64,000 bases of DNA from an uncultured Candidatus Saccharibacteria bacterium (GCA_964360975.1 CAYHYY010000001.1:959-64958), one strand, 5' to 3'. Positions 4,164-54,686 are shown, numbered from the stretch's first letter. Notes: a model not told the origin generated them from the letters alone. Numbers and translations: made by a program.

Positions 4164-5270
4164 ATGCGTATTCTCATTGCAACGGGCCTCTATCCTCCGG
4201 AGATTGGGGGACCAGCAACGTATTCAGCGCACCTCAAGAGGAGTCTGCCCGCGCATGGCATCGAAGTGGTTATCTTGCCGTTTAGCCGAGTTCGCCAATA
4301 TTGGAAAGTAGTTCGTCATCTCGTGTACTTCTACCTTGCCTTCAAGGAAGGAAAACGGACAGACCTTATATATGCTCAAGATCCTGTATCGGTCGGTGTG
4401 CCAGCGCTGTGTGCCGCGTTTTTATTACGGAAGCCTTATATGCTCAAGATTGTCGGCGATTACGCATGGGAACAGGCATCGCAGCGTTTCGGCTACGCGG
4501 GTACCCCCGATGCTTTCCAGGATGCTGAAATTCATATCATTGCAAAGATCTTCAGGACATTGGAACGTTTTGTTGCCAGGCAAGCGCACGTGGTCGTCGT
4601 TCCATCAAAGTATCTTGGCGGCATCGTGCGCCTTTGGGGTGTCCCCGAAGAGAAAATTGCGGTTATAAAAAATGGTATCGAGAGTTTCCAAGATACTGGT
4701 TCAAAGAGCGTCATTCGTGGATTATTTAAATTTCATGGAAAACTTATCATTTCGGTCGGCCGACTCGTTCCGTGGAAGGGATTTGATCTCTTAATTAGAA
4801 TTCTTCCCGCTATAAAAAAAAATTATCCTGATACAAAACTGCTCATTATTGGGTCGGGGCCTCTGATGGATGTTCTCGAAAAGAAATCTGTACAGATGGG
4901 GCTCATGAATGATGTCGTGTTTACCGGTGCACTGGAGCGGGACATCCTCATTCGCTATATTCGAGCATCAGATGTGTTTGCGTTGAATACGTCATATGAA
5001 GGACTTTCACATCAAATTCTTGAGGTGATGGCAGTCGGTGTTCCGGTCGTGACGACCCGCGTCGGTGGTAATCCAGAAGTTATTACGCACGGCGTTGATG
5101 GGTATCTCTTAAAGCACAATGACGCGAAGGGGTTTAGAGAAACTATCATGAAGCTGCTTGGTGATAGCGGTTTACGAACCCGTACGGTGGCAAACGCAAA
5201 GCGAAAAATCACGCAATTTTCTAATGAACGCATGGTCGCAGAAACGGCAGCACTGCTAAAAACAATATGA
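4164..5270 (+). CDS. Glycosyltransferase family 4
   Basis: MRILIATGLYPPEIGGPATY N-terminus and NTSYEGLSHQILEVMAVGVPVV motif. The start is taken at ATG 4164, directly after the upstream stop. Confidence 0.75.
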   Translation: MRILIATGLYPPEIGGPATYSAHLKRSLPAHGIEVVILPFSRVRQYWKVVRHLVYFYLAFKEGKRTDLIYAQDPVSVGVPALCAAFLLRKPYMLKIVGDYAWEQASQRFGYAGTPDAFQDAEIHIIAKIFRTLERFVARQAHVVVVPSKYLGGIVRLWGVPEEKIAVIKNGIESFQDTGSKSVIRGLFKFHGKLIISVGRLVPWKGFDLLIRILPAIKKNYPDTKLLIIGSGPLMDVLEKKSVQMGLMNDVVFTGALERDILIRYIRASDVFALNTSYEGLSHQILEVMAVGVPVVTTRVGGNPEVITHGVDGYLLKHNDAKGFRETIMKLLGDSGLRTRTVANAKRKITQFSNERMVAETAALLKTI

Positions 5271-27348: not shown

Positions 27349-28071
27349 ATGAACATCTATGCGGTGATCCTTGCCCGCGGTGGTTCAAAAGGGGTACCAC
27401 GGAAAAATGTCCTGCCGCTGAACGGAAAGCCGTTGATTGCGTGGACTATTGAGGCCGCAAAAAAAGTGCCGACGATTTCTAGGGTCGTGGTGAACACCGA
27501 TGATGATGAGATTGCTTCCGTCGCTGAATCGTACGGCGCGGAGATTTACATGCGCCCGAGTGAACTTGCAGGGGATGACACTCCCGATCTTCCGGTATTT
27601 GAGCAGTACCTAACGCGCCTCAAAGCGCAAGGCGAGTTGCCGGACATGATTGTCGATCTTCGTCCCACCGCGCCACTCCGCAGCGCGAAACGCATTGCTG
27701 AAGGGATTGAACTTTTATCCCGGATTGGCATTCTGAAAGCTGACTCGGTTCGAGCTGTTTCAAAAGCCGCGAAACATCCTTACAAGATGTGGAATCTCAA
27801 GGGTGAACACATCACCCCGTTTCTTTCGAAGTCCGTTACGGGGCTCAATGAGCCGTACAACGCTCCGCGACAAGTATTGCCACAGGTATATCAGAATAAT
27901 GGGTGCATGAATGCATTCTGGCCGGCAACAGTACTTGAGAAGCATTCGATGTCAGGCAACACTATCGCAGGTTTCGTTATGGATGATTGGGAGTCCGTTA
28001 ACATTGATACAAAGCTCGACTTCAAACTTGCCGAACTACTTATGAAAGAACACGAGAAGTTGTTTGCCTAA
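27349..28071 (+). CDS. CMP-nonulosonic-acid cytidylyltransferase (NeuA/PseF/LegF family)
   Basis: AVILARGGSKGVPRKNVLPLNGKPLI signature. Confidence 0.75.
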   Translation: MNIYAVILARGGSKGVPRKNVLPLNGKPLIAWTIEAAKKVPTISRVVVNTDDDEIASVAESYGAEIYMRPSELAGDDTPDLPVFEQYLTRLKAQGELPDMIVDLRPTAPLRSAKRIAEGIELLSRIGILKADSVRAVSKAAKHPYKMWNLKGEHITPFLSKSVTGLNEPYNAPRQVLPQVYQNNGCMNAFWPATVLEKHSMSGNTIAGFVMDDWESVNIDTKLDFKLAELLMKEHEKLFA

Positions 28072-28099
28072 TACGGTAGCGTGCGCGATACTGACCGCC

Positions 28100-29158
28100 A
28101 TGTCTGTTAAAGTAAAAATCATCGGAGCTGGCTCTATTGGAAATCATCTCGCGCAAGCGTCTCGGCGCATTGGGTGGGACGTTACCGTAGTGGATGCGAA
28201 CCGCGATGCGCTGAAGCGCATGAAGGACGATATCTATCCAACTAGATATGGAATGTGGGATTCACGCATTAAGCTCGCGCACATGAGTGAAGAACCGAAG
28301 GGTGGCTTCGACATCGTTATGATCGGGACGCCTCCCGACAGTCATCTCAAACTCGCGCTCGCCGCACTCCGCGAAAAACCGCGTGTGCTACAAATAGAGA
28401 AGCCGCTCTGCCCACCATGTGATCCGCTCCTCTCCCGATTCCTCGCAGCAGCAAAAAAGTCGCGAACGAAAATCATTGTTGGCTACGATCACACCGTAGG
28501 CGCGTCCATTGAATACGTCGCGTCGCATATACAGATGCTTGGGACTCCGCTTACCTTAGATGTCGAATTCCGTGAACACTGGCAAGGCATTTTCAAAGCG
28601 CACCCTTGGCTTTCTGGTCCATCAGATTCGTATTTGGGATACTGGAAGCGAGGCGGAGGAGCATCCGGGGAACACTCGCACGCACTCCATCTCTATCAAT
28701 ACCTAGCAAAAGAGATGGGGTTGGGGACCTGGAAGAAGGTCGTACCGCATCTGACGGTAGAGAAAGCAGCAGGAGGAGTGCAATACGATTCGGTGGCATC
28801 ATTCGGATTCGAGATGAGCAAGGGGCGATACGGACGTGTTATTCAAGATGTCATAACACTTCCAACGCGAAAGTGGGCGCGAGCGCAGGGATCCGATGGA
28901 TTCATCGAGTGGATCTGTGGTGGTTCGCCGAAAGGGGACATTGTCCGCCATGCGCTGAAGGGTAAAAAGCTAGAGGAGAAAGTGTTTGAGAAGACGCGCC
29001 CTGACGATTTCTTGAGAGAAGTAAAACACATTGATAAAATCCTGAAAGGCAAGCAAAGCGCCGCGACTTCCCCTATGTCTCTAGAGAGCGCGGTCGCGGT
29101 GATTCGTGTACTAGAGAAAACGTGGAAGAGTAAATCAAAGGTCGCGATTTCTTTGTAA
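28100..29158 (+). CDS. Gfo/Idh/MocA-family NAD(P) oxidoreductase
   Basis: VKIIGAGSIGNHLAQA Rossmann motif and family-typical length. The start was taken at ATG 28100. Confidence 0.6.
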   Translation: MSVKVKIIGAGSIGNHLAQASRRIGWDVTVVDANRDALKRMKDDIYPTRYGMWDSRIKLAHMSEEPKGGFDIVMIGTPPDSHLKLALAALREKPRVLQIEKPLCPPCDPLLSRFLAAAKKSRTKIIVGYDHTVGASIEYVASHIQMLGTPLTLDVEFREHWQGIFKAHPWLSGPSDSYLGYWKRGGGASGEHSHALHLYQYLAKEMGLGTWKKVVPHLTVEKAAGGVQYDSVASFGFEMSKGRYGRVIQDVITLPTRKWARAQGSDGFIEWICGGSPKGDIVRHALKGKKLEEKVFEKTRPDDFLREVKHIDKILKGKQSAATSPMSLESAVAVIRVLEKTWKSKSKVAISL

Positions 29159-29328
29159 AACAAGCCGCCCGTTCGACAGTCCCCCGGACTATCGAACACC
29201 CCGCCCCAAAGGGGACGGGGTATTGAGCGGGCGGCACCGGGGTGTTTTTCTAGGTAGAGAATCGGCCACCGCCGATACTGGTTTACCCTCAATCCCCGCG
29301 GCAAGCCGCGGGGATTGAAACCTAGTAA
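29159..29328. repeat. Copy A of a ~170 bp GC-rich multi-hairpin intergenic element that begins directly after a stop codon
   Basis: About 95% identical to 57303..57475. Hairpins: ttcgacagtcc/ggactatcgaa, caccccgcccc/ggggacggggtg, and ccccgcgg-caag-ccgcgggg. An enclosing stem gccgcccg/cgggcggc is followed by a T5 run. Confidence 0.7.
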
Positions 29329-29532
29329 ACTACCCCGCTACTACCATATATGGTAGTGATGCGGCCTCCGCCGAGATTCTCTTGACGGTACTCCGTCATA
29401 GAGAATCCAAGTGTGGTCGCCCTGCGCGAGCCACCGGGCGCGCGTGGCGACGATTCACCCCCGTGCCAGAGGCACGGGGCACTCTCGTCGTCCAGCCAGT
29501 AGAAATCTCAAGCCGGTGCGCTTGAGATTTGC
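29329..29532. other. Hairpin-dense non-coding stretch of at least five strong stem-loops between convergent genes. Possibly a structured RNA.
   Basis: Stem-loops ctacca-tata-tggtag, gattctct[tgacgg-tact-ccgtca]agagaatc, gtcgcc..ggcgac, ccccgtgcc-aga-ggcacgggg, and aaatctcaag-ccggtgcg-cttgagattt. No ORF. Confidence 0.35.
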
Positions 29533-30890
29533 ATTATCGTGTCGGCAATGTGCGAGCCCGCAGTTCCGAAATTAGGCAAATACGAATTCACCAGCGTTAC
29601 TCTCTTTTCAGCATTTTGTTCTGGGTCGTTCATGTAGCTCCCGATGATTGACCTGAACGTATCTTTGTCGTATGCAACATCAACGCCACCTGTTTCGAGA
29701 GCCTTTCGAATAAAAGAGAACGTGAAGAGTAACCTGATTACTGCGTCGTCGTTTTCTGCATGATCCAAACCAGACAGTCCCGTGTAAATCATCGGCTTGT
29801 TCAAAACTGCCGCGTCGAGCGCAAGTGAGGAGAAAATACTCAAATTGACGTCAGCAAAGTTGAGAAGATTCGCGACGTGATCTTTGTTTGGGAGTGTGTC
29901 TGCGGATTCTAGCAAGAGATTCGGGAACTCTTGCTGGAGAGATATATACGCCTCGGGAATACGTTGCGTTGGTCCAAACCGAACGAGGACCATGCTCTCA
30001 GGGATTCTCATCGCTTTGATGTCTTCAAGGAGCAGCTTCGTGACGTCCAACTGATGTGGGTGCCAATTGTCCGTTCCGACGAAATACGTGATGAGCTTCT
30101 TTTGAGGATCAGCGCCGATTGATTTGAAAAGTTCTTCACGGGTAGCGGATGGAGAAAACTTTGCGTAGGTATCGTATCGCTGACATCCCTCGACATGTAT
30201 CAGTTCTGCATTGATCGACTTAAGATCAACGAGTTCCTGCTTCATCAGGTCATTCCAGACAAAGATGTGTGCCTGCCGCGGCACCGAGTACAGGCGATTT
30301 TCAAAATAGTTCCATGGCAAGTCGACGACGAATACGGGAACTCGATGTTTTCTACCAACGGCAAGCCACGCGATATCGTGTGCATCATGAGAAAGTGTAC
30401 CCACCACAATACCGTCAGGAGAGTGCTCGCGAAGTAGTCCTTCGAACGATGGCTCTGAGATTGCATACTCCTCGAGGTAGTCAAATAGATTCACCAAAGT
30501 ACTTCGAAAAGGCCTGAGAAGCATGCGCAAGAATTTCATGACTCGATCCTTCGGGGGGAGAGAGCGAATCAGTGCGTTTGCGGTCGTGCTCATTTCAACC
30601 AATTTCGCGTGTTCGTGCTTTGCGGTATCAAGTGCCAATGCATGTTCACGGACCCGGCTCGTTTTTACTAATGACGCGGGCAGTGCGGGCAGTGCTTGGT
30701 GGACTACATTTTCGCCAGAAAACTCCTTCGTGAAGTCTTCATCATCCACAAATGGAGAAAGGATCACGATCTTCGACTTTGTTTTCAGAGACGAAAAAAT
30801 GTCTGAACGAAGAATGGCGTTCGTGCGGTACGCGGTCGGAATAATGAAAAAAAAGGTCTTCATGAAGCGGCGCGATTGTACCACGCTCAT
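29508..30890 (-). CDS. TagF/TagB-like GT-B fold protein, paralog 1 of 5 (putative polymer glycosyl- or glycerophospho-transferase)
   Basis: Shares with 33205, 36414, 48570 and 58828 an N-terminal ILxI..P motif, HSPDGIVVGT, WNYF, VEGCQRYD (GYPxxD-like), and C-terminal SSLALDAAVLNKPMIYTG. Confidence 0.45.
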   Translation of the reverse strand: MSVVQSRRFMKTFFFIIPTAYRTNAILRSDIFSSLKTKSKIVILSPFVDDEDFTKEFSGENVVHQALPALPASLVKTSRVREHALALDTAKHEHAKLVEMSTTANALIRSLPPKDRVMKFLRMLLRPFRSTLVNLFDYLEEYAISEPSFEGLLREHSPDGIVVGTLSHDAHDIAWLAVGRKHRVPVFVVDLPWNYFENRLYSVPRQAHIFVWNDLMKQELVDLKSINAELIHVEGCQRYDTYAKFSPSATREELFKSIGADPQKKLITYFVGTDNWHPHQLDVTKLLLEDIKAMRIPESMVLVRFGPTQRIPEAYISLQQEFPNLLLESADTLPNKDHVANLLNFADVNLSIFSSLALDAAVLNKPMIYTGLSGLDHAENDDAVIRLLFTFSFIRKALETGGVDVAYDKDTFRSIIGSYMNDPEQNAEKRVTLVNSYLPNFGTAGSHIADTIMQISSAPA

Positions 30891-30939: not shown

Positions 30940-31842
30940 ATGAGAGCGTTAGTAACCGGTGCAACTGGCTTTGTCGGATCGAACCTCGCCTTAAAACTTG
31001 CCGACGACGGTCACGACATTATTGCTGTTGGAGCAGCGCACGAGCAGAGGCTAGAACATCCGAACGTGCGCGTTATTTATATGGGCGCTCTCGAGATCCC
31101 GTGGGATACGATTGGGGACATTGATGTTCTGTTTCATCAGGGCGCGATTGCTGACACGACGATTTATGATCGAGAACAATTGATACGTGCGAACGTGGAG
31201 ACGTCAAAAAAATTTTTCGAGTACGCCATGACGCATGGTGCGAAATCCATCGTGTACGCCTCATCGTGCGCGGTCTATGGCGATCTCCCTGGAATTTTTA
31301 AAGAAGATGGCCCCGTCAAGCCTTTGAACGCCTATGGAGAATCAAAGGTTGCACAGGATGAATTTGCGAAAGAATTCTGGGCAAAAAATTCTGTTCGCGT
31401 GGTCGGCCTTCGGTACTCAAACGTCTACGGCCCCAGAGAGAACCACAAGGGGAGGATGGCGAATATGATCTATCAGCTTGCGCAGCAAATGCAGAGGGGC
31501 AATCCGCGCCTTTTCAAAATGGGCGAACAATTGCGCGAATATATTCATATTGATGACGTTGTCCGCGCAAATATTCTCGCGGTGGACTCGAAGGATAACG
31601 GCATCGCTAATATCTCATACAGTCCGCCACGTACCTTTAATGATGTCGTCACCGTTTTGAACAGCGTACTTGGCATGAAACGCACGCCGGAATATATCGA
31701 CAATCCATACGTGGGCAAATACCAGTCACACATTGAATGTGACGTCTCGCGCGCAAAGGAGCTGTTCGGCTTTACCGCCGCAATCTCTTTGGAGGAGGGA
31801 ATCAAGAGCTACTACGATTCGGGACATCTCGTACCCCGCTGA
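30940..31842 (+). CDS. ADP-L-glycero-D-manno-heptose 6-epimerase-like (HldD/RfaD family SDR)
   Basis: VTGATGFVGSNL, IVYASSCAVYG, KPLNAYGESK, and VGLRYSNVYGPRENHKGRMANM align closely with E. coli HldD (RYFNVYGPREGHKGSMASV). Confidence 0.75.
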   Translation: MRALVTGATGFVGSNLALKLADDGHDIIAVGAAHEQRLEHPNVRVIYMGALEIPWDTIGDIDVLFHQGAIADTTIYDREQLIRANVETSKKFFEYAMTHGAKSIVYASSCAVYGDLPGIFKEDGPVKPLNAYGESKVAQDEFAKEFWAKNSVRVVGLRYSNVYGPRENHKGRMANMIYQLAQQMQRGNPRLFKMGEQLREYIHIDDVVRANILAVDSKDNGIANISYSPPRTFNDVVTVLNSVLGMKRTPEYIDNPYVGKYQSHIECDVSRAKELFGFTAAISLEEGIKSYYDSGHLVPR

Positions 31843-31979
31843 AGCATAACTTTTTTGATTGCTTCGATCAGAAGGGTTTTGATGGATAGAAGTGTTGAGC
31901 GTATTTCAGTCGTTTATCGCGGGCTACCTTTGGTTTCGTGCGTATGAGAGGCTGACGTTCAAGATTTCAAATGGTATTA

Positions 31980-31995
31980 TTTTCATATATGAAAA
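31980..31995. promoter_or_regulatory. 16 bp perfect palindrome TTTTCATATATGAAAA centred on the start codon of the TrpR-like gene (candidate operator)
   Basis: Seen in the sequence. A near-identical 18 bp palindrome recurs at 32439..32456. Confidence 0.4.
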
Positions 31996-32426
31996 AAAAG
32001 AAAGGAGATTTAAGTAAGGAAGAATTTATCAAGACACTCGACATGCTCTATACAGCTGCTGGTACTGTTAAAGGTCGAAAGGATATGAAGTCGTTCCTGC
32101 GCGACCTTTTGACGGAGAGCGAGCGAATAATGCTCGGGCGACGTATTTGGATTGCGAGGCTCCTCCTTAATGGAATAAGTGTCATTGAAATTAGTCACCA
32201 GCTCAGAGTGAGTGTGGCAACTGTATACCGGGTGGAGCGCTGGCTCAAGGATCAGTTCACAGGTTACGAAGGCGCGGTCAGGGGTCTTGAGCGTGAGATG
32301 GAAAAGCGCGCGCGCATCCGCGAGGCAATCGCAGAACCTTTTTCATTTGTTGCATTAAAGCGTAGGTATCCACTCCATTTTCTGCTGTTCCCTGACCCTA
32401 AACCCAAGAAGCGGTACCACGATTAA
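31989..32426 (+). CDS. TrpR-like DNA-binding protein (YerC/YecD family)
   Basis: LTESERIMLGRRIWIARLLLNGISVIEISHQLRVSVATVYRV matches the Trp-repressor-like helix-turn-helix. The start was taken at ATG 31989 (MKKKKGDL). Confidence 0.6.
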   Translation: MKKKKGDLSKEEFIKTLDMLYTAAGTVKGRKDMKSFLRDLLTESERIMLGRRIWIARLLLNGISVIEISHQLRVSVATVYRVERWLKDQFTGYEGAVRGLEREMEKRARIREAIAEPFSFVALKRRYPLHFLLFPDPKPKKRYHD

Positions 32427-32438
32427 TATATTTTCGAG

Positions 32439-32456
32439 ATTTTCATATATGAAAAT
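32439..32456. promoter_or_regulatory. 18 bp perfect palindrome ATTTTCATATATGAAAAT, 13 nt after the stop of the TrpR-like gene (second candidate operator)
   Basis: Seen in the sequence. Pairs with the site at 31980..31995. Confidence 0.4.
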
Positions 32457-32589
32457 ATTTGCGAGTTGCTGTTCGTCATTGTTGAGAAGACCATACGTGA
32501 GTCGGCAGCGTCCCTATACATACTATACGCAGCAACATCAATGCACGTTTTCCTTACGTGCTTAAAGCACTGTATGCTGCTCTGTTATT

Positions 32590-33198
32590 GTGTATAGTGG
32601 TGTGGAATCAATTTCAAAAATTACTACGTCTTTCATGCTCTACGCGCCGCAGATATACGCTCTCAATGGATTCGCACGAATTTCGTTCAAAAAGGATACG
32701 CAAAAGTTTCTTGACGTTGGGTGTGGATTTCGCAAATTACCGGGAGCGGTAGGCGTCGATGCGGACCCTTCAACTGATGCAGACGTCGCACACGACCTTG
32801 AAAAATTTCCGTGGCCTTTTGCCGATGGGGAATTTGATCTTATACTTATGTCCCACGTTCTTGAGCATCTCTCTAACACCGCGAAGACCCTTCGCGAGGT
32901 ACACCGTGTCGGGAAGCCGGGCGCGCGCGTCGTTATTCAGATACCCTATTTTAGATCACCTGACGCTTTTTCTGACCCTACACATAAGCATTTTTTCACG
33001 ATAGAGTCAGAAACCTTCCTTCTTGCGGAAGGGTATGAACGGGTGGGCTTTTGGATTGGTTGGCCGCACCGATCGAGGAACCCAATAAAGGAGGCATTCA
33101 AGCAGTATGTCCACCAACACCCAAAATTTTATGAATCACATCTCTCGCTTCTCTTTCCAACCGAATGTCTTACGTGGGAGCTCGAAGTGAAGAAATAA
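32590..33198 (+). CDS. Class I SAM-dependent methyltransferase (Methyltransf_11-like)
   Basis: LDVGCGFRKLPGAVGVD motif I, DLILMSHVLEHL, PGARVVIQIPY. The exact start is uncertain (an alternative ATG lies at 32638). Confidence 0.6.
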   Translation: MYSGVESISKITTSFMLYAPQIYALNGFARISFKKDTQKFLDVGCGFRKLPGAVGVDADPSTDADVAHDLEKFPWPFADGEFDLILMSHVLEHLSNTAKTLREVHRVGKPGARVVIQIPYFRSPDAFSDPTHKHFFTIESETFLLAEGYERVGFWIGWPHRSRNPIKEAFKQYVHQHPKFYESHLSLLFPTECLTWELEVKK

Positions 33199-33204
33199 AG
33201 TGTT

Positions 33205-34623
33205 ATGGCAAGCGACAAAACAAAAACGTTGCTCTTTTCCATAAGTGTTGGCGAGTGTTACAAAAATTTTGCCGCGTTTCCGGGAGGCTTGTTTGAACTG
33301 CTGGAGGCGGATGTCGTGCGAGGCGCACTTCGAATAATTTTTGTCGTTCCTAAAGAAAAGACTGCGCTTCTCGAGCCAGTTGAAGCATTCGCAAAGCGTC
33401 ATCCTGATCGGGTCGTCGTCGAAACGGTTACCATAGCTCCAAGAACGACGATACAAAAAATATTTGCCTTTCTCTACTCGTACTTCGTGTACACCGGGAC
33501 TACAAAAACGCTCGCCACGGTAGGCATGCGGCCGAACGACGCACCAGGCGGAGGTAATCGGTGGCTCGCGCCACTCAAGTTCGCACTATCCAAAACGTTC
33601 GGCAGAAGTCGCTGGATTCGTTTTTCTGTAGTCCCTGTTCTCTACCGCTTATTTTTTCCACAACGCCCATTTGCGCAGATCGTCGATACATACGAACCAG
33701 ATCTTGTATTTGTTCCCGATTTATTTGATCGATTCGACGTCGAACTTTCGCGAGAAGCAATGTACCGGAAGATTCGGCGCGTGGGGATGGTGATGAACTG
33801 GGATCACCTCGATAAATATTTCCTCCCCTTTCCCGTGGAGATACTCTTTGCGCAGAGCGATCAAATGCGGAGATTCGCCGTTGAATTTCAGATGTATCCG
33901 AACGAGGCGATTAGAATTGTGGGGTACCCGTTTCTCGATTTTGTGGCAAACAAAGAATACCGCGCGCCGCGCGAAGAAATAATAAAAAAGCTTGGATTTT
34001 CACCGAACGCGAAATACGTTTTGTATATCGCTGGCAGCATGTATGCGCCCGACGAGCCAGACGTTATCGAGGAGATGATCAAGTGGGCGGACCATAACGA
34101 ATACGGCGGCGAAGACGTGTACTTTGTCATTAGGCCGTATCCTGGCGGAAGAGGGAAAGATGTGGAATTTGACGAGCAAAAATTCAACGGGTTTGCGAAT
34201 CATCCGCGCGTATCGTTTCAGATGGAAAAATTCTGGGCCGGATTTGAAACGAACATCGAATTCATGAATATTATGCGGCATGCCGACGTTTTGATTCAGG
34301 TATTTTCAACGGCGGTTATTCCCGCAGCGGCCTTGGATCGCCCTATGATAACGCCCTCCTTCGATGGGCATCATCTCCGACCATTTAATCGTTCGGTGAG
34401 GAGATTTGAAATGCGAGAGCATTTTAAGGATGTCCTTGAAAGTGGAGGGCAACAGCGCGCGCTGACTTTTGAGGAGCTTAAGGAAAAACTCACGATGTAC
34501 TTAAAGCACCCAGAAACTCACGCTCGGGAGCGCGAAGATATGAGACAGAAAGTTGTCGGACCTCTTGATGGAAACGCGTCAAAACGCATGCACGAGCTAC
34601 TCATCAAAGAACTCGATTCATAA
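33205..34623 (+). CDS. TagF/TagB-like GT-B fold protein, paralog 2 of 5
   Basis: YEPDLVFVPD, MNWDHLDKY, VGYPFLD (GYPRxD-like), FSTAVIPAAALDRPMITP. Confidence 0.45.
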   Translation: MASDKTKTLLFSISVGECYKNFAAFPGGLFELLEADVVRGALRIIFVVPKEKTALLEPVEAFAKRHPDRVVVETVTIAPRTTIQKIFAFLYSYFVYTGTTKTLATVGMRPNDAPGGGNRWLAPLKFALSKTFGRSRWIRFSVVPVLYRLFFPQRPFAQIVDTYEPDLVFVPDLFDRFDVELSREAMYRKIRRVGMVMNWDHLDKYFLPFPVEILFAQSDQMRRFAVEFQMYPNEAIRIVGYPFLDFVANKEYRAPREEIIKKLGFSPNAKYVLYIAGSMYAPDEPDVIEEMIKWADHNEYGGEDVYFVIRPYPGGRGKDVEFDEQKFNGFANHPRVSFQMEKFWAGFETNIEFMNIMRHADVLIQVFSTAVIPAAALDRPMITPSFDGHHLRPFNRSVRRFEMREHFKDVLESGGQQRALTFEELKEKLTMYLKHPETHAREREDMRQKVVGPLDGNASKRMHELLIKELDS

Positions 34624-34626
34624 CGC

Positions 34627-36417
34627 ATGACTGCATCAAGCACTGTACCCCGTATGCGCGCAACCGAGCTCCTTTGGACGCTCTATGGTGAGCATAAAGG
34701 ATACGTCGTCATCCTTCTGGTTCTTGGCATACTTGGTGGATTTCTCGAGACGCTGGGGATTAGTATTCTCATTCCGCTTTTCTCGCACGTGTTAGACAAG
34801 CCTCTCATAGAAACAGGAAATTTCGCCGCGTTTTTCGTGCGGCTTTTTGATTTTTTCCACATTCAGCAACGCCTGAGCGTGCTCTTGCCACTTCTCGTCT
34901 CCATTTTTGTGTTTCGAGGTCTCGTCCTCTATAGCTTCAATTATGTTCGCGCACGGGTTATGGGCGATTACGAACGTGCGACACGGACGAGTGTCTATAA
35001 AAAATTGCTGCATGCTGACTGGCCATTTCTATCGGCACAACGCATCGGACATGCGGAGAATACGCTCATGGCCGATGTTGATAGGGCGACAAAGCTACTC
35101 GCCAATCTCACGAATTCCATTCTTCAGGTATCGAGTCTCGCGATCTACGTCACGGTGGCCATAGCTATTTCTCCAGAGGTGACCGCGGCAACCTTGATAA
35201 CCGGTGGAGCGCTGCTTTACTTCTTTCGGCCGCTCATTCGCAGGAATCGTGAGTATTCAGCTAAAACCGTCGATCTCAATAAACGGATCGCGCACGATGT
35301 CAATGAAAGCATCATCGGAATAAAATCAGTCAAAATCATGAACCGTGAAGACGCATTGAGCGATCGGATGGCGCGCCTCTTCAATTATCTCCGTGATCTG
35401 AAAATCAAACGCACATTAATTTCATCCGCGACGACAGAATTCATTCAGCCCGTGAGTGTCATTTTCGTTGTGCTCGTGTTTATCTACGCTTTTTATCGAC
35501 CCGGATTTGATCTGGCGACATTTGCGGTCGTCATGTTTCTCATTCAACGCATATTCATCTATGTTGATCGAGGGCAGACGCTCATGCATGAGATTAATCA
35601 GCAACTACCGCACGCAACGTATTTAGTGAATTTCCTCGGCTTACTTGAAGGTCGAACGACGGGAGTCAATGGCGAGAAGCCTTTCGCATTTGGCAAAGAA
35701 ATCGTCTTCGATCATGTTTCATTCGTGTATGAGTCGGAACGCACGGTGCTCAAGGACGTAACGTTTTCAATCAAGCACGGTGAAATGGTTGGCATCATTG
35801 GGCCTTCAGGCGTTGGGAAGACCACGGTCGTTGATCTCATCATGAGACTTCTTGACCCGTCGGATGGGAAAATTACGGTCGACGGCGTTCCGCTTGACCG
35901 TATAAGCACGAAGGAATGGCGCTCCCATATTGGTTACGTGCCACAAGACATCTTTCTCCTGAATGAGAGTATTTTTCAGAATATTCGATTTTTTGACCAC
36001 TCAGTTTCTCCCGATGATGTCCGTATCGCTATTCGCGATGCGAAACTCGACGAGGTGGTCGCGGCGCTTCCTCAGGGCATAGAGACTAACGTGGGAGAGC
36101 GGGGCGTCGCGCTTTCTGCGGGACAACGACAGCGCATTGTTCTCGCGAGAGCTCTTGCTCGGAAACCGGACATTCTCATTCTCGATGAGGCGACGAGTTC
36201 TCTGGATGCTGAATCTGAGAGTGTCATTCACGAGGCGCTTGAAGCAATACGCGGAAAAGTCACGGTCATCATAATCGCGCACCGACTTTCTACGATTATG
36301 AATGCAGATACGCTGGTAGCACTTGAGGGTGGACAGATCGTCGAGCACGGGACGCCAGATGCGCTACTAAAAAACCCGAAGTCATATTTCTATCGTTTGC
36401 GGTCTATGCAAACATGA
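34627..36417 (+). CDS. ABC exporter with a fused six-TM permease and ATPase (MsbA-like family)
   Basis: Six N-terminal TM helices. Walker A GPSGVGKTT, ABC signature LSAGQRQRIVLARAL, and Walker B ILILDEATSSLD. Confidence 0.85.
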   Translation: MTASSTVPRMRATELLWTLYGEHKGYVVILLVLGILGGFLETLGISILIPLFSHVLDKPLIETGNFAAFFVRLFDFFHIQQRLSVLLPLLVSIFVFRGLVLYSFNYVRARVMGDYERATRTSVYKKLLHADWPFLSAQRIGHAENTLMADVDRATKLLANLTNSILQVSSLAIYVTVAIAISPEVTAATLITGGALLYFFRPLIRRNREYSAKTVDLNKRIAHDVNESIIGIKSVKIMNREDALSDRMARLFNYLRDLKIKRTLISSATTEFIQPVSVIFVVLVFIYAFYRPGFDLATFAVVMFLIQRIFIYVDRGQTLMHEINQQLPHATYLVNFLGLLEGRTTGVNGEKPFAFGKEIVFDHVSFVYESERTVLKDVTFSIKHGEMVGIIGPSGVGKTTVVDLIMRLLDPSDGKITVDGVPLDRISTKEWRSHIGYVPQDIFLLNESIFQNIRFFDHSVSPDDVRIAIRDAKLDEVVAALPQGIETNVGERGVALSAGQRQRIVLARALARKPDILILDEATSSLDAESESVIHEALEAIRGKVTVIIIAHRLSTIMNADTLVALEGGQIVEHGTPDALLKNPKSYFYRLRSMQT

Positions 36418-37781
36418 AAGTTCTCTTCGTCATCCGTTCGGTGAACTTGTTTCACTACTATAAGAGCATTATCACTGCGCTCGCCAAGCGGGGACATGTG
36501 GTCGAGATGTTATTCGATGAAAAGTGGAGTACTGCTCATTCTATTGAACCGGTGAAAGAATTCATTGCACGATATCCTGCGTGCACCTACGGATGGTCTC
36601 TGCGAAGGCATGGTTGGCTTAAGCCATGTATCTTTCAAGTGCGCGAGCTTCGTAGTTACCGACGATTCCTCATTGTTCCGGGGCAGTCGACGTATTATCG
36701 CGACCGATGGCCAAACCACATGCCCTGGTTATGGCGACAGACGCTCAAACGCGTTCCGGGCGCGAAAGCAATATTGAAAACAAAGTTGTGCGGACGCTTC
36801 CTCGCATTCATAGAGGACAGCGTTCGACCTGATCCGAGAATAGTCGAGGACATTCGAAAGCATGCGCCAGACATTGCAGTGGTCACGCCGCTCAATCTGC
36901 GACTCTCCGAGGATATCGAATATTTAAAGGCTGCGCGCTCTCTAAAGATACCGACCGCGGGCGCTGTGCTTTCGTGGGACAATTTGACCACGAAGGGACT
37001 TATGAGCATTTTGCCAGATATACTCTTGGTCTGGAATGAAGCGCAAGTCGAAGAAGCGCGCGTGCATCACCAGATTCCTCCCGAGAAAACTCGAGTCGTT
37101 GGCGCTGCAGTTTTCGACCAATGGTTTGATTCAAACCTTTCTGCTTCAGCAGATAGAGAAGTTTTTTGCACGGCCCACGGACTGGATCCCAAGAAGCCGT
37201 ACGTTTTGTATCTCGGATCGTCTCGCAACATGGCGTACGACGAAACGTGGATTATTAAGAAACTGCGAACAGCGCTCGACGAGAGCGACGATCCTCTCCT
37301 TCGGTCGGTGCAGCTCGTGGTACGACCGCACGGGGCTAATTACGCAATCTATAAGGATATAGAAACACCCGGCATTGTGCTGGTCCCCCGTGAGGGAACG
37401 CTTCCGAATACGAGGGAGACGCTTCAGCTCTTTTACGATACCGCGTATCATTCTGTCGGCGTCATTATCGGTGCGAACACGAGCGCCATCATTGACTCAA
37501 TGACCGTGGGGAAGCCAGCGATAGTGTTTCAAACAGACCAGTACCGAAAGACGCAGATGGATACGCAGCACTTTCGGCAACTTCTTGAAATGGAAGTGCC
37601 GTACCTGGTGCCAGATACAGTTTCATTCTTAAAGCGCATGTTTTCACTTTTGAAAGGTGACGACCCGAAGCGAGAAAACAGGCATGCATTCATCAAACGG
37701 TATATTCGACCGCATGACGTGAGCGCCGGCGAAAAGGCGGCAGACATTCTTGAGGGACTTGCGAAAAAACGCGCGCGCTAG
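36414..37781 (+). CDS. TagF/TagB-like GT-B fold protein, paralog 3 of 5
   Basis: MKVLFVIRSVNLFHY, HAPDIAVVTP, SWDNLTTKG, VVGAAVFDQ, GANTSAIIDSMTVGKPAIVF. Confidence 0.45.
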   Translation: MKVLFVIRSVNLFHYYKSIITALAKRGHVVEMLFDEKWSTAHSIEPVKEFIARYPACTYGWSLRRHGWLKPCIFQVRELRSYRRFLIVPGQSTYYRDRWPNHMPWLWRQTLKRVPGAKAILKTKLCGRFLAFIEDSVRPDPRIVEDIRKHAPDIAVVTPLNLRLSEDIEYLKAARSLKIPTAGAVLSWDNLTTKGLMSILPDILLVWNEAQVEEARVHHQIPPEKTRVVGAAVFDQWFDSNLSASADREVFCTAHGLDPKKPYVLYLGSSRNMAYDETWIIKKLRTALDESDDPLLRSVQLVVRPHGANYAIYKDIETPGIVLVPREGTLPNTRETLQLFYDTAYHSVGVIIGANTSAIIDSMTVGKPAIVFQTDQYRKTQMDTQHFRQLLEMEVPYLVPDTVSFLKRMFSLLKGDDPKRENRHAFIKRYIRPHDVSAGEKAADILEGLAKKRAR

Positions 37782-44749: not shown

Positions 44750-45688
44750 TTAGAGAATCAAAGGAAAAACGAAGGCGACGAAAAAGGGGATGTAGATAAG
44801 CGCAAAGAGCGTCGTCGAGACCACGGCAACGGCCGCTTTTTCGGGGACGGTGTTTAGTTGTGACGCATAGGCAACAGTGTTTGAAGCGAGCGGCACAATC
44901 GAAAAGGTGAGCATGATCGGATATACAGAAGCACTAAAAAAATGAAAAGTGTTGATGTCCAACAAGATAAGACTAATCGCTGCAGCGGGCCAGACGAGGA
45001 ATTTTGATGCAAACGATAAGAGTAGGAATTTTTTGTCTACGTCGCTCCATGCGACACCAGCGAGGCCAATGCCGACAAGCATCATGCCGAGCACGGAGTA
45101 CGCTCCTCGAAAATGAGCGAAAAGAGTTGACGCGTTTTCATATATGGATATGTGCAGCGCTAGAAACAGGACACCCACAATGAAGGCATACAGCGTGGGA
45201 AGCCTCAACACTCGCATGATCGCGTCACGAGGAAGAAAATTTCCGCGTGCGACGAAGTAATAGCCAATAGAATTTTCAAAGAGGGATATGCCGAGAATGA
45301 GGAGTACCGCTACCGACAAGTACTGTTCACCAAAAAGTGCGAGGACGAGGGGTAGACCAAAGTAGCCAGCGTTACCTGTGCCCGCGCCAAATGCCAAAAT
45401 ATTCTTTTCTGGTCCCTGCCAATACATTTTTCCAATGTTATAGAACGCGATACTCATGATTGTTGCTAGAGAAAACGATAGAAGCGGCAGGAGCATGATA
45501 GACCGATCGGGGGACGCAGTGACCACGCCATTAAAAATGACGAAGGGCACAATAAAAAAAATGAGGAGGCTCGCTATTGATTCTTTGTTGACCTTGAAAT
45601 AGCGGCCAGCGAGGTATCCAAGCAATACCAGTACGTAAAGAGGGAGAATTTTCGAAATGAGATCGACAAAGAGTTCCATGTGTGGCAA
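44750..45688 (-). CDS. AEC-family (auxin-efflux-carrier-like) membrane transporter
   Basis: About 10 TM helices. N-terminal ILPLYVLVLLGYLAGRY is typical of the family. Confidence 0.55.
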   Translation of the reverse strand: MPHMELFVDLISKILPLYVLVLLGYLAGRYFKVNKESIASLLIFFIVPFVIFNGVVTASPDRSIMLLPLLSFSLATIMSIAFYNIGKMYWQGPEKNILAFGAGTGNAGYFGLPLVLALFGEQYLSVAVLLILGISLFENSIGYYFVARGNFLPRDAIMRVLRLPTLYAFIVGVLFLALHISIYENASTLFAHFRGAYSVLGMMLVGIGLAGVAWSDVDKKFLLLSFASKFLVWPAAAISLILLDINTFHFFSASVYPIMLTFSIVPLASNTVAYASQLNTVPEKAAVAVVSTTLFALIYIPFFVAFVFPLIL

Positions 45689-54492: not shown

Positions 54493-54686
54493 TTTTATTT
54501 TTTTATAAAAAAGTTTTCATATATGTTATCCACATGTACTGGTTGATTGTGTGGTGAGATGTTTTATGCGCTACATAATGATGAGAGCTTGTATGGCGAC
54601 GCAGGAATAATGTTTGCACAACGCATTGTTCCAGGTCAGGCGTAGAGCGCATGTACAGGTCGTTATTTGTCCTAAAGCAAACTCAT

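What the first reader, a model, noticed from the sequence alone, without database searches (positions are those of the whole stretch)
31979..32456. TrpR-like (YerC/YecD) regulator bracketed by two copies of an 18 bp palindrome ATTTTCATATATGAAAAT
A perfect 16 bp palindrome TTTTCATATATGAAAA sits exactly on the regulator's start codon (31980..31995). A perfect 18 bp version lies 13 nt after its stop (32439..32456), just upstream of the next operon (a methyltransferase, a TagF-like gene and the ABC exporter). A half-site TTTTCATATATG also occurs at 54514..54525 upstream of the secA region. This looks like an autoregulatory operator plus an operator controlling the downstream glycan operon. Ligand-responsive control of surface glycan synthesis in such a compact genome would be notable.
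Basis: seen in the sequence. Interest (0 to 1): 0.5.

Follow-up and report, generated by a model that had tools for sequence, protein, structure and literature searches.

The report
Self-bracketed TrpR-like repressor cassette in Parcubacteria
A small TrpR/HisR-type DNA-binding protein of an ultrasmall groundwater bacterium sits between two copies of its own palindromic binding site, a layout kept in about 60 related genomes, so it most likely switches itself off rather than controlling the neighbouring sugar-polymer genes.

Summary
TTTTCATATATGAAAA occurs exactly twice in a ~50% GC window: on the start codon of a 145-aa TrpR-family gene (31980-31995) and, as an 18-mer, 12 nt after its stop (32439-32456).

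Comparison with 80 homologous loci from Patescibacteria/Parcubacteria MAGs shows the bracket is family-wide. About 70 loci have a palindrome with a CATATATG or GATATATC core over the promoter, and 63 of 81 also have a second copy just after the stop. The two copies share the central ~18 bp.

Operator sequence differs between genomes and paralogs and tracks the recognition helix. An acidic residue at position 77 (TrpR Ala80 equivalent) goes with G at position ±4 in 33/34 loci, and other residues go with C in 41/43. There were about 8-10 independent switches.

The geometry (ACT-12 bp-AGT, 18-20 bp) matches the validated HisR (YerC) operator. The upstream site covers the -10/TSS of an apparently leaderless gene, which points to autorepression.

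The idea that the downstream site controls the glycan operon is not supported. In relatives the downstream neighbour is unrelated, and it lies on the opposite strand in 56/68 loci.

The role of the downstream copy, and the palindromy that extends up to 62 bp in relatives, remain unexplained. This is a new variant of a known kind, of moderate interest.

The parts
31952..31980 (+). Predicted promoter of the regulator gene: -35-like CTGACG (31952-31957), 17-bp spacer, extended -10 TGgTATTAT (31972-31980). The -10 ends 8 nt before the ATG, implying a leaderless or near-leaderless mRNA.
   Evidence: Consensus scan, (CTGACG-17-TATTAT, TG present). In 47/80 homologous loci a TANNNT hexamer ends 7-9 nt before the ATG, and 74/80 have no SD-like motif. 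Inference only; no transcript data.
31980..31995 (.). Upstream operator (U): perfect 16-bp palindrome TTTTCATATATGAAAA. It matches 17/18 of the 18-mer over 31979-31996. It is centred on the predicted TSS and start codon (ATG 31989-31991).
   Evidence: A homologous palindrome is present upstream of the gene in about 70/80 relatives.
31989..32426 (+). Gene for a 145-aa TrpR/HisR-family HTH protein. Residues about 10-100 form the TrpR fold, with recognition helix V76-A77-T78-V79-Y80-R81. Residues about 100-145 form a family-specific C-terminal extension (…KRRYPLHFLLFPDPKPKKRYHD).
   Evidence: PF01371 E 3.7e-14. PDB profile hits 3FRW/3KOR/3G1C at 1e-10 to 1e-8, and E. coli TrpR at about 1e-3. AF2 pLDDT 86. 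Foldseek TM(target) about 0.8, rmsd 2.0 Å. hhalign to E. coli TrpR maps T42/R52/A77/T78/R81 onto T44/R54/A80/T81/R84. 1220 homologues of about 145 aa. The C-terminal 50 aa has no relatives outside the family.
32439..32456 (.). Downstream operator (D): perfect 18-bp palindrome ATTTTCATATATGAAAAT, 12 nt after the stop codon and about 145 bp before the methyltransferase gene.
   Evidence: A second copy of the locus-specific palindrome lies 7-95 bp after the stop in 63/81 loci. It shares a median of 18 central bp with the upstream copy.
29340..29357 (.). Orphan site of the same operator family but another specificity type (ACTACCATATATGGTAGT). It lies between convergent gene ends, inside a highly structured 349-nt spacer. 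It is presumably the target of a paralogous regulator encoded outside the window.
   Evidence: (the only other ATATAT-core palindrome in the window, and only one TrpR-like ORF there). This type flanks paralogues in L033, L035, L048, L057 and L209.
45135..45146 (+). Isolated 12-mer half-site TTTTCATATATG inside the minus-strand AEC-family transporter ORF (44750-45688). Not palindromic. Meaning unknown.
   Evidence: Flanks are unrelated to the other copies.
54514..54525 (+). Isolated 12-mer half-site TTTTCATATATG in the murB-like/secA spacer, about 320 bp before secA. Not palindromic. Meaning unknown.
   Evidence: No remnant of a regulator gene nearby.

Best explanation
The two palindromes are the cognate operators of the TrpR/HisR-family protein encoded between them. 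Together, operator, gene and operator form a self-contained autoregulatory cassette. This cassette is conserved across Parcubacteria (Patescibacteria).

A dimer most likely binds each 18-20-bp site through its helix-turn-helix. The residue at position 77 (the equivalent of TrpR Ala80) reads the base pair 4 positions from the dyad (inferred from covariation).

The upstream operator lies on the -10/TSS of a leaderless gene, so bound protein should block RNA polymerase and repress its own synthesis (inferred from position).

The downstream operator belongs to the same cassette rather than to the next operon. Its most likely roles are two:
- an auxiliary operator that raises local repressor concentration, or loops to the upstream site;
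- a protein roadblock that insulates the gene from transcription of its neighbours.
Both roles are inferred and weakly supported.

What is shown: the sequence facts, family-wide conservation of both sites, protein-DNA covariation, and fold and family membership.
What is not shown: binding, repression, a ligand, or looping.
For: 1. Exact duplication far beyond chance in a 50% GC window.
2. In 554 kb of 80 homologous loci there are 211 perfect palindromes of at least 14 bp. Of these, 134 have a CATATATG or GATATATC core. 130 of the 211 lie in the bins just before the start or just after the stop of the TrpR-like gene.
3. 63/81 loci have both copies. The two copies share a median of 18 central bp, while sequences differ between genomes and paralogues.
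4. Dyad symmetry is at least 0.87 out to ±9 and falls after ±10. That is an 18-20-bp operator, the size and ACT-12 bp-AGT geometry of the experimentally validated HisR operator cacTTTAnnnnnnTAAAgtg (PMC9413887).
5. Covariation: D/E at residue 77 goes with G at -4 in 33/34 loci. Other residues go with C in 41/43, plus one Val with T. Only 3 of 79 loci are discordant, with about 8-10 independent changes on an NJ tree.
6. Proteins about 72% identical to the window's have ATTACG (E77), mixed ATTACG/ATTACC (Q77) or ATTACC (R77) operators, with both flanking copies changed together.
7. Residue 77 aligns with TrpR Ala80, listed as a DNA-contacting residue in PMC9413887.
8. The upstream site overlaps the core promoter. 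In the window TGgTATTAT ends 8 nt before the ATG. In relatives the centre clusters at -14 to -20 (over the -10) or at -27 to -39 (over the -35/spacer). A TANNNT hexamer ends 7-9 nt before the ATG in 47/80 loci, and 74/80 have no SD-like motif.
9. Fold and family membership.
Against: - There is no binding, transcript or expression data of any kind.
- Covariation is partly confounded by shared ancestry. The tree is a rough NJ tree.
- The distance between the two operators (432-586 bp) shows no helical phasing, so there is no positive evidence for looping.
- A plain operator model does not explain why 52 of 89 sites continue as perfect palindromes well beyond the shared 18-20 bp, up to 62 bp.
- It also does not explain why sites occur between convergent gene ends.
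- Only 64 kb of this genome is visible, so the regulon beyond the gene itself is unknown.
- About 10 loci have only the upstream copy, and a few have palindromes with other cores.
Confidence: 0.72

Rival explanations
1. One reading: the downstream palindrome is the operator through which the regulator controls the methyltransferase/TagF-like/ABC-exporter (surface glycan) operon. This would act at a promoter overlapping the site, or by blocking read-through from upstream.
For: - In the window all genes from 30940 to 37781 are on the plus strand, so a protein bound at 32439-32456 lies in the path of any read-through.
- The right arm plus flank reads TGaAAATAT, a weak extended -10-like string (my reading).
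- In 12/68 relatives the next gene is co-directional.
Against: - The site is present after the regulator gene regardless of what follows. The neighbour is on the opposite strand in 56/68 loci.
- Neighbours are SecA, SMC, tRNA synthetases and the like. The closest relatives have different neighbours.
- No consensus plus-strand promoter overlaps the site.
- It lies about 145 bp upstream of the methyltransferase start.
Confidence: 0.2
2. The palindromes act mainly as nucleic-acid hairpins, with sequence similarity secondary. They would be RNA stem-loops serving as bidirectional terminators, insulators or mRNA stabilisers, or DNA cruciforms.
For: - Many sites in relatives are far longer perfect palindromes than any HTH dimer needs, up to 62 bp.
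- The outer arms differ between the two copies of one locus, yet each site stays self-complementary.
- L005 and L033 fold at -54 and -47 kcal/mol, z about -11.
- Downstream copies are longer than upstream ones (median 22 against 18 bp, p = 0.007).
- Many sites lie between convergent gene ends.
Against: - In the window the hairpins are weak and no better than shuffles (z -0.5 and +0.2). No terminator-like site was called there.
- Long stems are not followed by T-tracts: a fraction of 0-0.09 has at least 5 T in 8 nt.
- Upstream copies usually lie before the inferred TSS, so they would not be in the mRNA.
- A pure structure model does not explain the invariant ATATAT centre, the shared central 18 bp, or covariation with residue 77.
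Confidence: 0.1
3. The cassette is a selfish or mobile unit analogous to REP/RAYT or IS200-type elements. These have a small gene flanked by its own hairpin-forming palindromes, further copies scattered in intergenic DNA, and paralogues each with a private palindrome type.
For: - Gene of about 145 aa bracketed by cognate palindromes.
- 1-3 paralogues per genome, each with its own type (L012/L075/L080).
- Orphan copies lie in intergenic spacers, often at 3' ends.
- Genomic neighbours are highly variable.
Against: - The protein is a plain HTH with no nuclease or HUH domain.
- It is strongly conserved (60-74% identity across candidate phyla), as expected of a vertically inherited housekeeping gene.
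- Partial synteny with Obg and SecA recurs.
- Orphan sites are rare, about 12 in 648 kb, and several of those flank further paralogues.
- There are no homologues in 2.9 million viral contigs.
Confidence: 0.05

Closest known systems
HisR (YerC of Bacillus subtilis; TrpR-family histidine repressor; PMC9413887)
   Same: - Closest solved structures by sequence profile and fold: 3G1C, which PMC9413887 names as HisR, and the similar 'putative TrpR' entries 3FRW and 3KOR.
- A 20-bp palindromic operator with ACT and AGT separated by 12 bp. Compare cacTTTAnnnnnnTAAAgtg with CACTTTCATATATGAAAGTG in L047.
- Frequent autoregulatory site upstream of its own gene.
   Different: - HisR is under 100 aa and usually single-copy, and its sites lie upstream of his biosynthesis and transport genes.
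- Here the protein is 145 aa with a conserved C-terminal extension.
- It scores below the YerC/YecD NCBIfam cut-off.
- It has 1-3 paralogues per genome and an invariant ATATAT operator centre.
- A second operator follows the stop codon, and no his genes lie nearby.
E. coli TrpR and its autoregulated trpR gene
   Same: - Same Pfam family and fold.
- The LLT-x-SER-x-x-LG-x-R motif and T44/R54/A80/T81/R84 equivalents are conserved.
- Palindromic 18-20-bp operator overlapping the promoter of its own gene (operator consensus as quoted in PMC9413887; autoregulation from textbook knowledge).
   Different: - The TrpR operator has ACT and AGT 8 bp apart, not 12.
- TrpR is about 108 aa with a single operator at trpR, and its regulon is the aromatic amino-acid genes.
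- The score is well below the TrpR equivalog cut-off: 29 against 67 bits.
Repressors with auxiliary operators flanking or inside the regulated unit (LacI O1/O2/O3, GalR OE/OI, DeoR)
   Same: Two identical operators a few hundred bp apart around one transcription unit. One sits at the promoter and one at the 3' side. LacI O3 at the end of lacI is a precedent for 3'-end roadblock autoregulation (my knowledge, not tested here).
   Different: - No evidence here for tetramerisation or looping, and no helical phasing.
- The whole gene, not just the promoter, is bracketed.
- The arrangement is conserved across a whole candidate superphylum branch.
REP elements with their RAYT gene (REPIN-RAYT systems)
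   Same: Architecture only: a gene of about 150 aa flanked by its cognate hairpin-forming palindromes, type-specific pairing of paralogue and palindrome, and extra copies in intergenic 3' regions (my knowledge for REP/RAYT).
   Different: RAYT is an HUH/Y1 transposase and REPs number in the hundreds. Here the protein is an HTH repressor-type fold and extra copies are few.

Membership tests
Trp repressor family (Pfam PF01371) | Significant match to the family model above the gathering score | tested here: met
   53 bits against a cut-off of 27, E 3.7e-14, residues 16-97.
Trp repressor family (Pfam PF01371) | All-helical TrpR fold with HTH (helices D/E) | tested here: met
   AF2 model pLDDT 86. 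Foldseek best hits are 3FRW, 3G1C, 1TRO and 3KOR, with TM(target) 0.64-0.80 and rmsd 1.9-3.3 Å over about 88 residues.
Trp repressor family (Pfam PF01371) | 18-20-bp palindromic operator recognised by a dimer | tested here: inconclusive
   Sequence side met: dyad symmetry at least 0.87 to ±9 and covariation with the Ala80-equivalent residue. Binding itself cannot be tested with these tools.
TrpR proper (NCBIfam TIGR01321 equivalog) | Score above the equivalog cut-off | tested here: not met
   29.4 bits against a cut-off of 67.25.
YerC/YecD = HisR (NCBIfam TIGR02531; PMC9413887) | Score above the family cut-off | tested here: not met
   31.6 bits against a cut-off of 42.2.
YerC/YecD = HisR (NCBIfam TIGR02531; PMC9413887) | Short protein (<100 aa) without extra domains | tested here: not met
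   145 aa. A conserved C-terminal region of about 45 aa is absent from 3FRW/3KOR/3G1C.
YerC/YecD = HisR (NCBIfam TIGR02531; PMC9413887) | Operators upstream of histidine biosynthesis or uptake genes | tested here: not met
   Sites flank the regulator itself. Neighbours are Obg, SecA, SMC, tRNA synthetases and glycan genes. Only ±4 kb per locus and 64 kb of this genome were seen.
YerC/YecD = HisR (NCBIfam TIGR02531; PMC9413887) | Operator geometry CACTTTA-n6-TAAAGTG (ACT and AGT 12 bp apart) | tested here: met
   Family consensus aaATACTATCATATATGATAGTATtt. The window variant is ATT…AAT.
YerC/YecD = HisR (NCBIfam TIGR02531; PMC9413887) | Amino-acid co-repressor required for DNA binding | not testable with these tools
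   T42, R52, T78 and R81 align with TrpR T44, R54, T81 and R84. From memory, those TrpR residues line the tryptophan pocket. No ligand can be inferred.
Looping repressors with auxiliary operators (LacI/GalR/DeoR type) | Two or more operators per unit plus oligomerisation of DNA-bound dimers | tested here: inconclusive
   Two operators are present in 63/81 loci. There is no helical phasing of their spacing (Rayleigh p 0.4-0.9). Oligomerisation via the C-terminal helix was not tested.
Intrinsic (Rho-independent) terminator | GC-rich stem-loop followed by a T-tract | tested here: not met
   No terminator-like call at either palindrome. RNA folds no better than shuffles. Long palindromes in relatives lack T-tracts.
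REP/RAYT or IS200-like element | HUH/Y1 transposase gene flanked by its hairpins, with many dispersed copies | tested here: not met
   The protein is an HTH of the TrpR fold. There are about 12 distant sites in 648 kb, and several of them flank further paralogues. None in viral contigs.

The most novel reading that the evidence does not exclude
The Parcubacterial TrpR-like proteins may not be ordinary metabolite-sensing repressors. They may instead be the protein half of a family of 'addressable' palindromic boundary elements. In this reading each paralogue recognises a private, rapidly co-evolving 18-20-bp palindrome. That palindrome is placed at both ends of the paralogue's own gene and at a few other intergenic positions, often 3' gene ends. 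There the protein-DNA complex, or a protein-stabilised cruciform, would act as a transcriptional insulator or factor-dependent terminator in genomes with very few regulators. The extended, site-specific palindromy and the 3'-end positions would then be functional rather than incidental.
Probability: 0.15. Interest if true: 0.8.

Novelty: new variant of a known kind. Interest (0 to 1): 0.5.

Why it matters
Almost nothing is known about gene regulation in Patescibacteria (CPR). Three full-text searches of the held library found no paper on this protein family in CPR, and one recent Patescibacteria review contained none of five regulator-related terms.

What this gives:
- One of the most conserved DNA-binding proteins of Parcubacteria, with more than 1200 homologues.
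- Its predicted operator.
- A simple, testable recognition rule: residue 77 acidic goes with G, otherwise C, at position ±4.
- A predicted leaderless promoter layout.

The rule can be tested in vitro without cultivating the organism. It would also allow regulon prediction across thousands of MAGs. The conserved operator-gene-operator bracket and the unexplained long palindromes may point to an insulation or looping mechanism. For the window itself, the practical message is negative: there is no good evidence that the surface-glycan genes are under this regulator's control.

Tried and rejected
1. **Unbiased scan of metagenome contigs** for AYTWTCATATATGAWART.
It was dominated by AT-rich variants from low-GC contigs: ATTATC…GATAAT gave 54 hits, none next to a TrpR-like gene. 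As an association test it is inconclusive.
   - Only the ACTATC…GATAGT type was informative. Of 26 hits, 13 were scored as lying within 300 bp of a TrpR-like gene, and 1 more lies next to a divergent paralogue (L197). The rest lie in housekeeping spacers.
2. **Intrinsic-terminator reading.** Rejected for the window and for the long palindromes.
3. **DNA looping with helical phasing.** No phase preference.
4. **Known RNA families or tRNAs** at or near the sites. None found.
5. **Decayed regulator pseudogene** next to the half-sites at 45135 and 54514 or the orphan at 29340. No tblastn signal.
6. **Second TrpR-like gene in the window.** None.
7. **Phage or mobile origin.** No homologues in viral contigs.
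8. **C-terminal extension shared with other protein families.** Only family members were recovered.
9. **Conserved functional neighbour** such as a glycan operon. Rejected.
10. **Start codon at 31971** (MVLFSYMKKKK). Rejected in favour of 31989, because orthologues start at MKK/MKR and 31972-31980 is the -10 region.

Full report
**1. The observation**

The sequence is as described.
- TTTTCATATATGAAAA lies at 31980-31995 and contains the ATG at 31989-31991.
- Gene callers on the same contig in public data use this ATG as the start of a 145-aa protein. All orthologues also begin MKK/MKR there.
- The stop is TAA at 32424-32426.
- The 18-mer ATTTTCATATATGAAAAT lies at 32439-32456.

The window is 46-52% GC everywhere.
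- The 16-mer with up to 3 mismatches gives 5 hits against 0.38 expected.
- The 12-mer TTTTCATATATG occurs at four places against 0.01 expected.

There is also a third perfect palindrome of the same family but a different type, ACTACCATATATGGTAGT, at 29340-29357.

**2. The protein**

- It matches Pfam Trp_repressor (E 3.7e-14).
- It falls below the NCBIfam cut-offs for both YerC/YecD and TrpR.
- A profile of 30 orthologues finds the YerC/HisR-type structures 3FRW, 3KOR and 3G1C at 1e-10 to 1e-8, and E. coli TrpR at about 1e-3.
- An AlphaFold model (pLDDT 86) superposes on these over about 88 residues, with TM(target) about 0.8 and rmsd 2 Å.
- The last 45 or so residues form a long helix, then …KYPLHFLLFPxPKPKKxYR. 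They have no counterpart in solved structures and no relatives outside the family.
- hhalign to E. coli TrpR maps T42, R52, A77, T78 and R81 onto T44, R54, A80, T81 and R84.
- There are about 1220 homologues, almost all about 145 aa. The few that a source names are called Patescibacteria or Parcubacteria group bacteria. The window's own protein is found in Hainich groundwater assemblies and one Logan run.

**3. Relatives**

One scan of GTDB species genomes gave 80 loci, and some genomes have 2-3 paralogues.

Upstream of the start codon, about 70 loci carry a palindrome with a CATATATG (38) or GATATATC (29) core.

Counting every perfect palindrome of at least 14 bp in 554 kb gives 211.
- 134 of them have these two cores.
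- 130 of the 211 fall in the bins just before the start or just after the stop.

Both copies are present in 63 of 81 loci. The two copies share a median of 18 central bp. The sequence differs between genomes and between paralogues of one genome. The bracket seen in the window is therefore a conserved property of the gene family.

It also holds for a more divergent subfamily: L010 2430-2846, and apparently L197 3918-4328, where only the downstream copy was seen.

**4. Is it the protein's own operator?**

*Size and geometry.*
- Dyad symmetry is at least 0.87 out to ±9, 0.73 at ±10, and decays afterwards.
- The folded consensus is aaATACTATCATATATGATAGTATtt.
- This is the size of TrpR-family operators. 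The ACT-12 bp-AGT geometry is that of the HisR (YerC) operator cacTTTAnnnnnnTAAAgtg, whose binding was validated in vitro (PMC9413887).

*Covariation.*
- The base pair at ±4 tracks residue 77, which aligns with TrpR Ala80. PMC9413887 lists Ala80 as a DNA-contacting residue.
- Acidic residues go with G in 33/34 loci.
- Other residues go with C in 41/43, plus one Val with T.
- Three of 79 loci are discordant. A rough NJ tree needs about 8-10 independent changes.

*Concerted change in close relatives.* Proteins only about 28% diverged from the window's carry different operators, and in each case both flanking copies changed together:
- ATTACGATATATCGTAAT with E77;
- a mixed ATTACG/ATTACC site with Q77, with the downstream copy inverted;
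- ATTACCATATATGGTAAT with R77.

I regard direct recognition as well supported, though not demonstrated.

**5. Position relative to the promoter**

- The consensus scan finds CTGACG-17-TATTAT with an upstream TG at 31952-31980.
- The -10 ends 8 nt before the ATG.
- Across relatives a TANNNT hexamer ends 7-9 nt before the ATG in 47/80 loci.
- 74/80 loci lack a Shine-Dalgarno-like motif.

The gene is therefore probably leaderless.

The upstream palindrome centre lies in one of three places:
- at -14 to -20, where the right arm itself supplies TAGTAT;
- at -27 to -39, over the -35/spacer;
- on the start codon itself, as in the window and in L210.

In every arrangement a bound dimer would occlude RNA polymerase. 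This is the basis for inferring autorepression.

**6. The downstream copy**

- The neighbour after it is on the opposite strand in 56/68 loci.
- Neighbours are diverse housekeeping genes: Obg, SecA, SMC, tRNA synthetases and primase.
- The closest relatives of the window have other neighbours.
- In the window it lies about 145 bp before the methyltransferase gene, and no plus-strand promoter was called over it.

However, all genes from 30940 to 37781 are co-directional, so a roadblock effect on read-through cannot be excluded.

- Looping is possible, but the 432-586-bp spacing shows no helical phasing.
- A terminator role is not supported. The window hairpins fold no better than shuffles, and the long palindromes of relatives lack T-tracts.

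**7. What remains unexplained**

*Extended palindromy.*
- Of 89 sites perfect to 20 bp, 52 continue for at least 2 more pairs, against about 7 expected. The longest reaches 62 bp.
- The outer arms are not shared between the two copies of a locus.
- In several loci the right arm runs up to or into the ATG and is mirrored on the left (L027, L033, L057).
- This suggests arm-to-arm copying, selection for a hairpin or cruciform, or mirror-image promoters.
- Downstream copies are longer than upstream ones (p = 0.007).

*Orphan sites.*
- Sites away from the regulator genes exist but are rare.
- In relatives several lie between convergent or tandem housekeeping genes.
- In the window the ACTACC site sits in a 349-nt spacer that folds with z about -11 on both strands and matches no Rfam family.

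**8. Comparison and novelty**

By sequence, fold and operator geometry this is a TrpR/HisR-family repressor. It is not a member of TrpR proper, nor of YerC/HisR as defined by NCBIfam or by regulon. It differs in several ways:
- length;
- the C-terminal extension;
- an invariant ATATAT centre;
- paralogue number;
- the operator-gene-operator bracket.

Architecturally it recalls two known arrangements. One is repressors with auxiliary operators (LacI O3 at the 3' end of lacI). The other, superficially, is REP/RAYT units. The protein has no catalytic domain, and there are no viral homologues.

Three full-text searches found no paper on this protein family in CPR. One recent Patescibacteria review contained none of the five regulator-related terms searched.

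Verdict: a real feature, and a new variant of a known kind. Autoregulation is likely. Control of glycan synthesis is not supported. The downstream site and the long palindromes remain open questions.

Noticed in passing
window 29340-29357: Perfect 18-bp palindrome ACTACCATATATGGTAGT. It belongs to the same operator family but to the type that flanks other paralogues in relatives. It lies between convergent gene ends (28064-29158 on the plus strand, 29508-30890 on the minus strand). No second TrpR-like gene is present in the window.
   Followed up: partly
window 29159-29507: A 349-nt GC-rich spacer made of several hairpins, for example TCAATCCCCGCGGCAAGCCGCGGGGATTGA at 29289-29318. It folds at -194 and -200 kcal/mol, z about -11 on both strands. 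There is no Rfam match at gathering score and only weak sub-threshold hits. It could be an unannotated structured RNA or a cluster of terminator/REP-like hairpins.
   Followed up: partly
window 45135-45146 and 54514-54525: Two isolated exact copies of the 12-mer half-site TTTTCATATATG: 4 places in the window against 0.01 expected. One lies inside a coding region on the opposite strand. The other lies in the murB-like/secA spacer, next to an AT palindrome at 54497-54514. Flanks are unrelated and there is no regulator remnant.
   Followed up: partly
L005 about 4448-4509; L033 about 4436-4489; L027 and L053 upstream sites: In relatives, the operators are embedded in perfect palindromes of 46-62 bp. 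Their outer arms are unique to each site. In L027 the palindrome mirrors the start codon (TTTTCAT…ATGAAAA). This is not explained by an HTH-dimer footprint or by intrinsic terminators.
   Followed up: partly
L010 2392-2902; L197 3918-4370: A more divergent TrpR-like subfamily has recognition helix ISPSTIARL or MSPSTVSAI and C-terminus GKGRWKF/YL. In L010 it is bracketed by ATATAT-core palindromes. In L197 only the copy after the stop was seen. The architecture therefore extends beyond the 145-aa family.
   Followed up: partly
L210 4549-4566; L018; L051: Some loci carry arrays of 3-6 operators spaced about 60-70 bp apart (L018, L051). L210 carries a site of another paralogue's type (CGTATCATATATGATAAG) next to the cassette. 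These hint at cooperative binding and at cross-regulation between paralogues.
   Followed up: no
L209 2072-5827: In one relative the cassette sits inside a type IV pilus/T2SS gene row (T2SSE, then the TrpR-like gene, then T2SSF, all on one strand). This is another case, like the window, where it interrupts a co-directional operon-like cluster.
   Followed up: no
80 homologous loci, 60 nt upstream of the regulator start: The regulator genes look leaderless. A TANNNT hexamer ends 7-9 nt before the ATG in 47/80 loci, and 74/80 have no Shine-Dalgarno-like motif. This may reflect a general feature of Parcubacterial promoters.
   Followed up: partly
window 36414-37781 and 29508-30890: A 455-aa ORF in the glycan cluster has no Pfam match at all. 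A second TagF-like (Glyphos_transf) gene on the opposite strand matches only weakly (E 0.0024). The cluster holds poorly characterised glycan enzymes.
   Followed up: no
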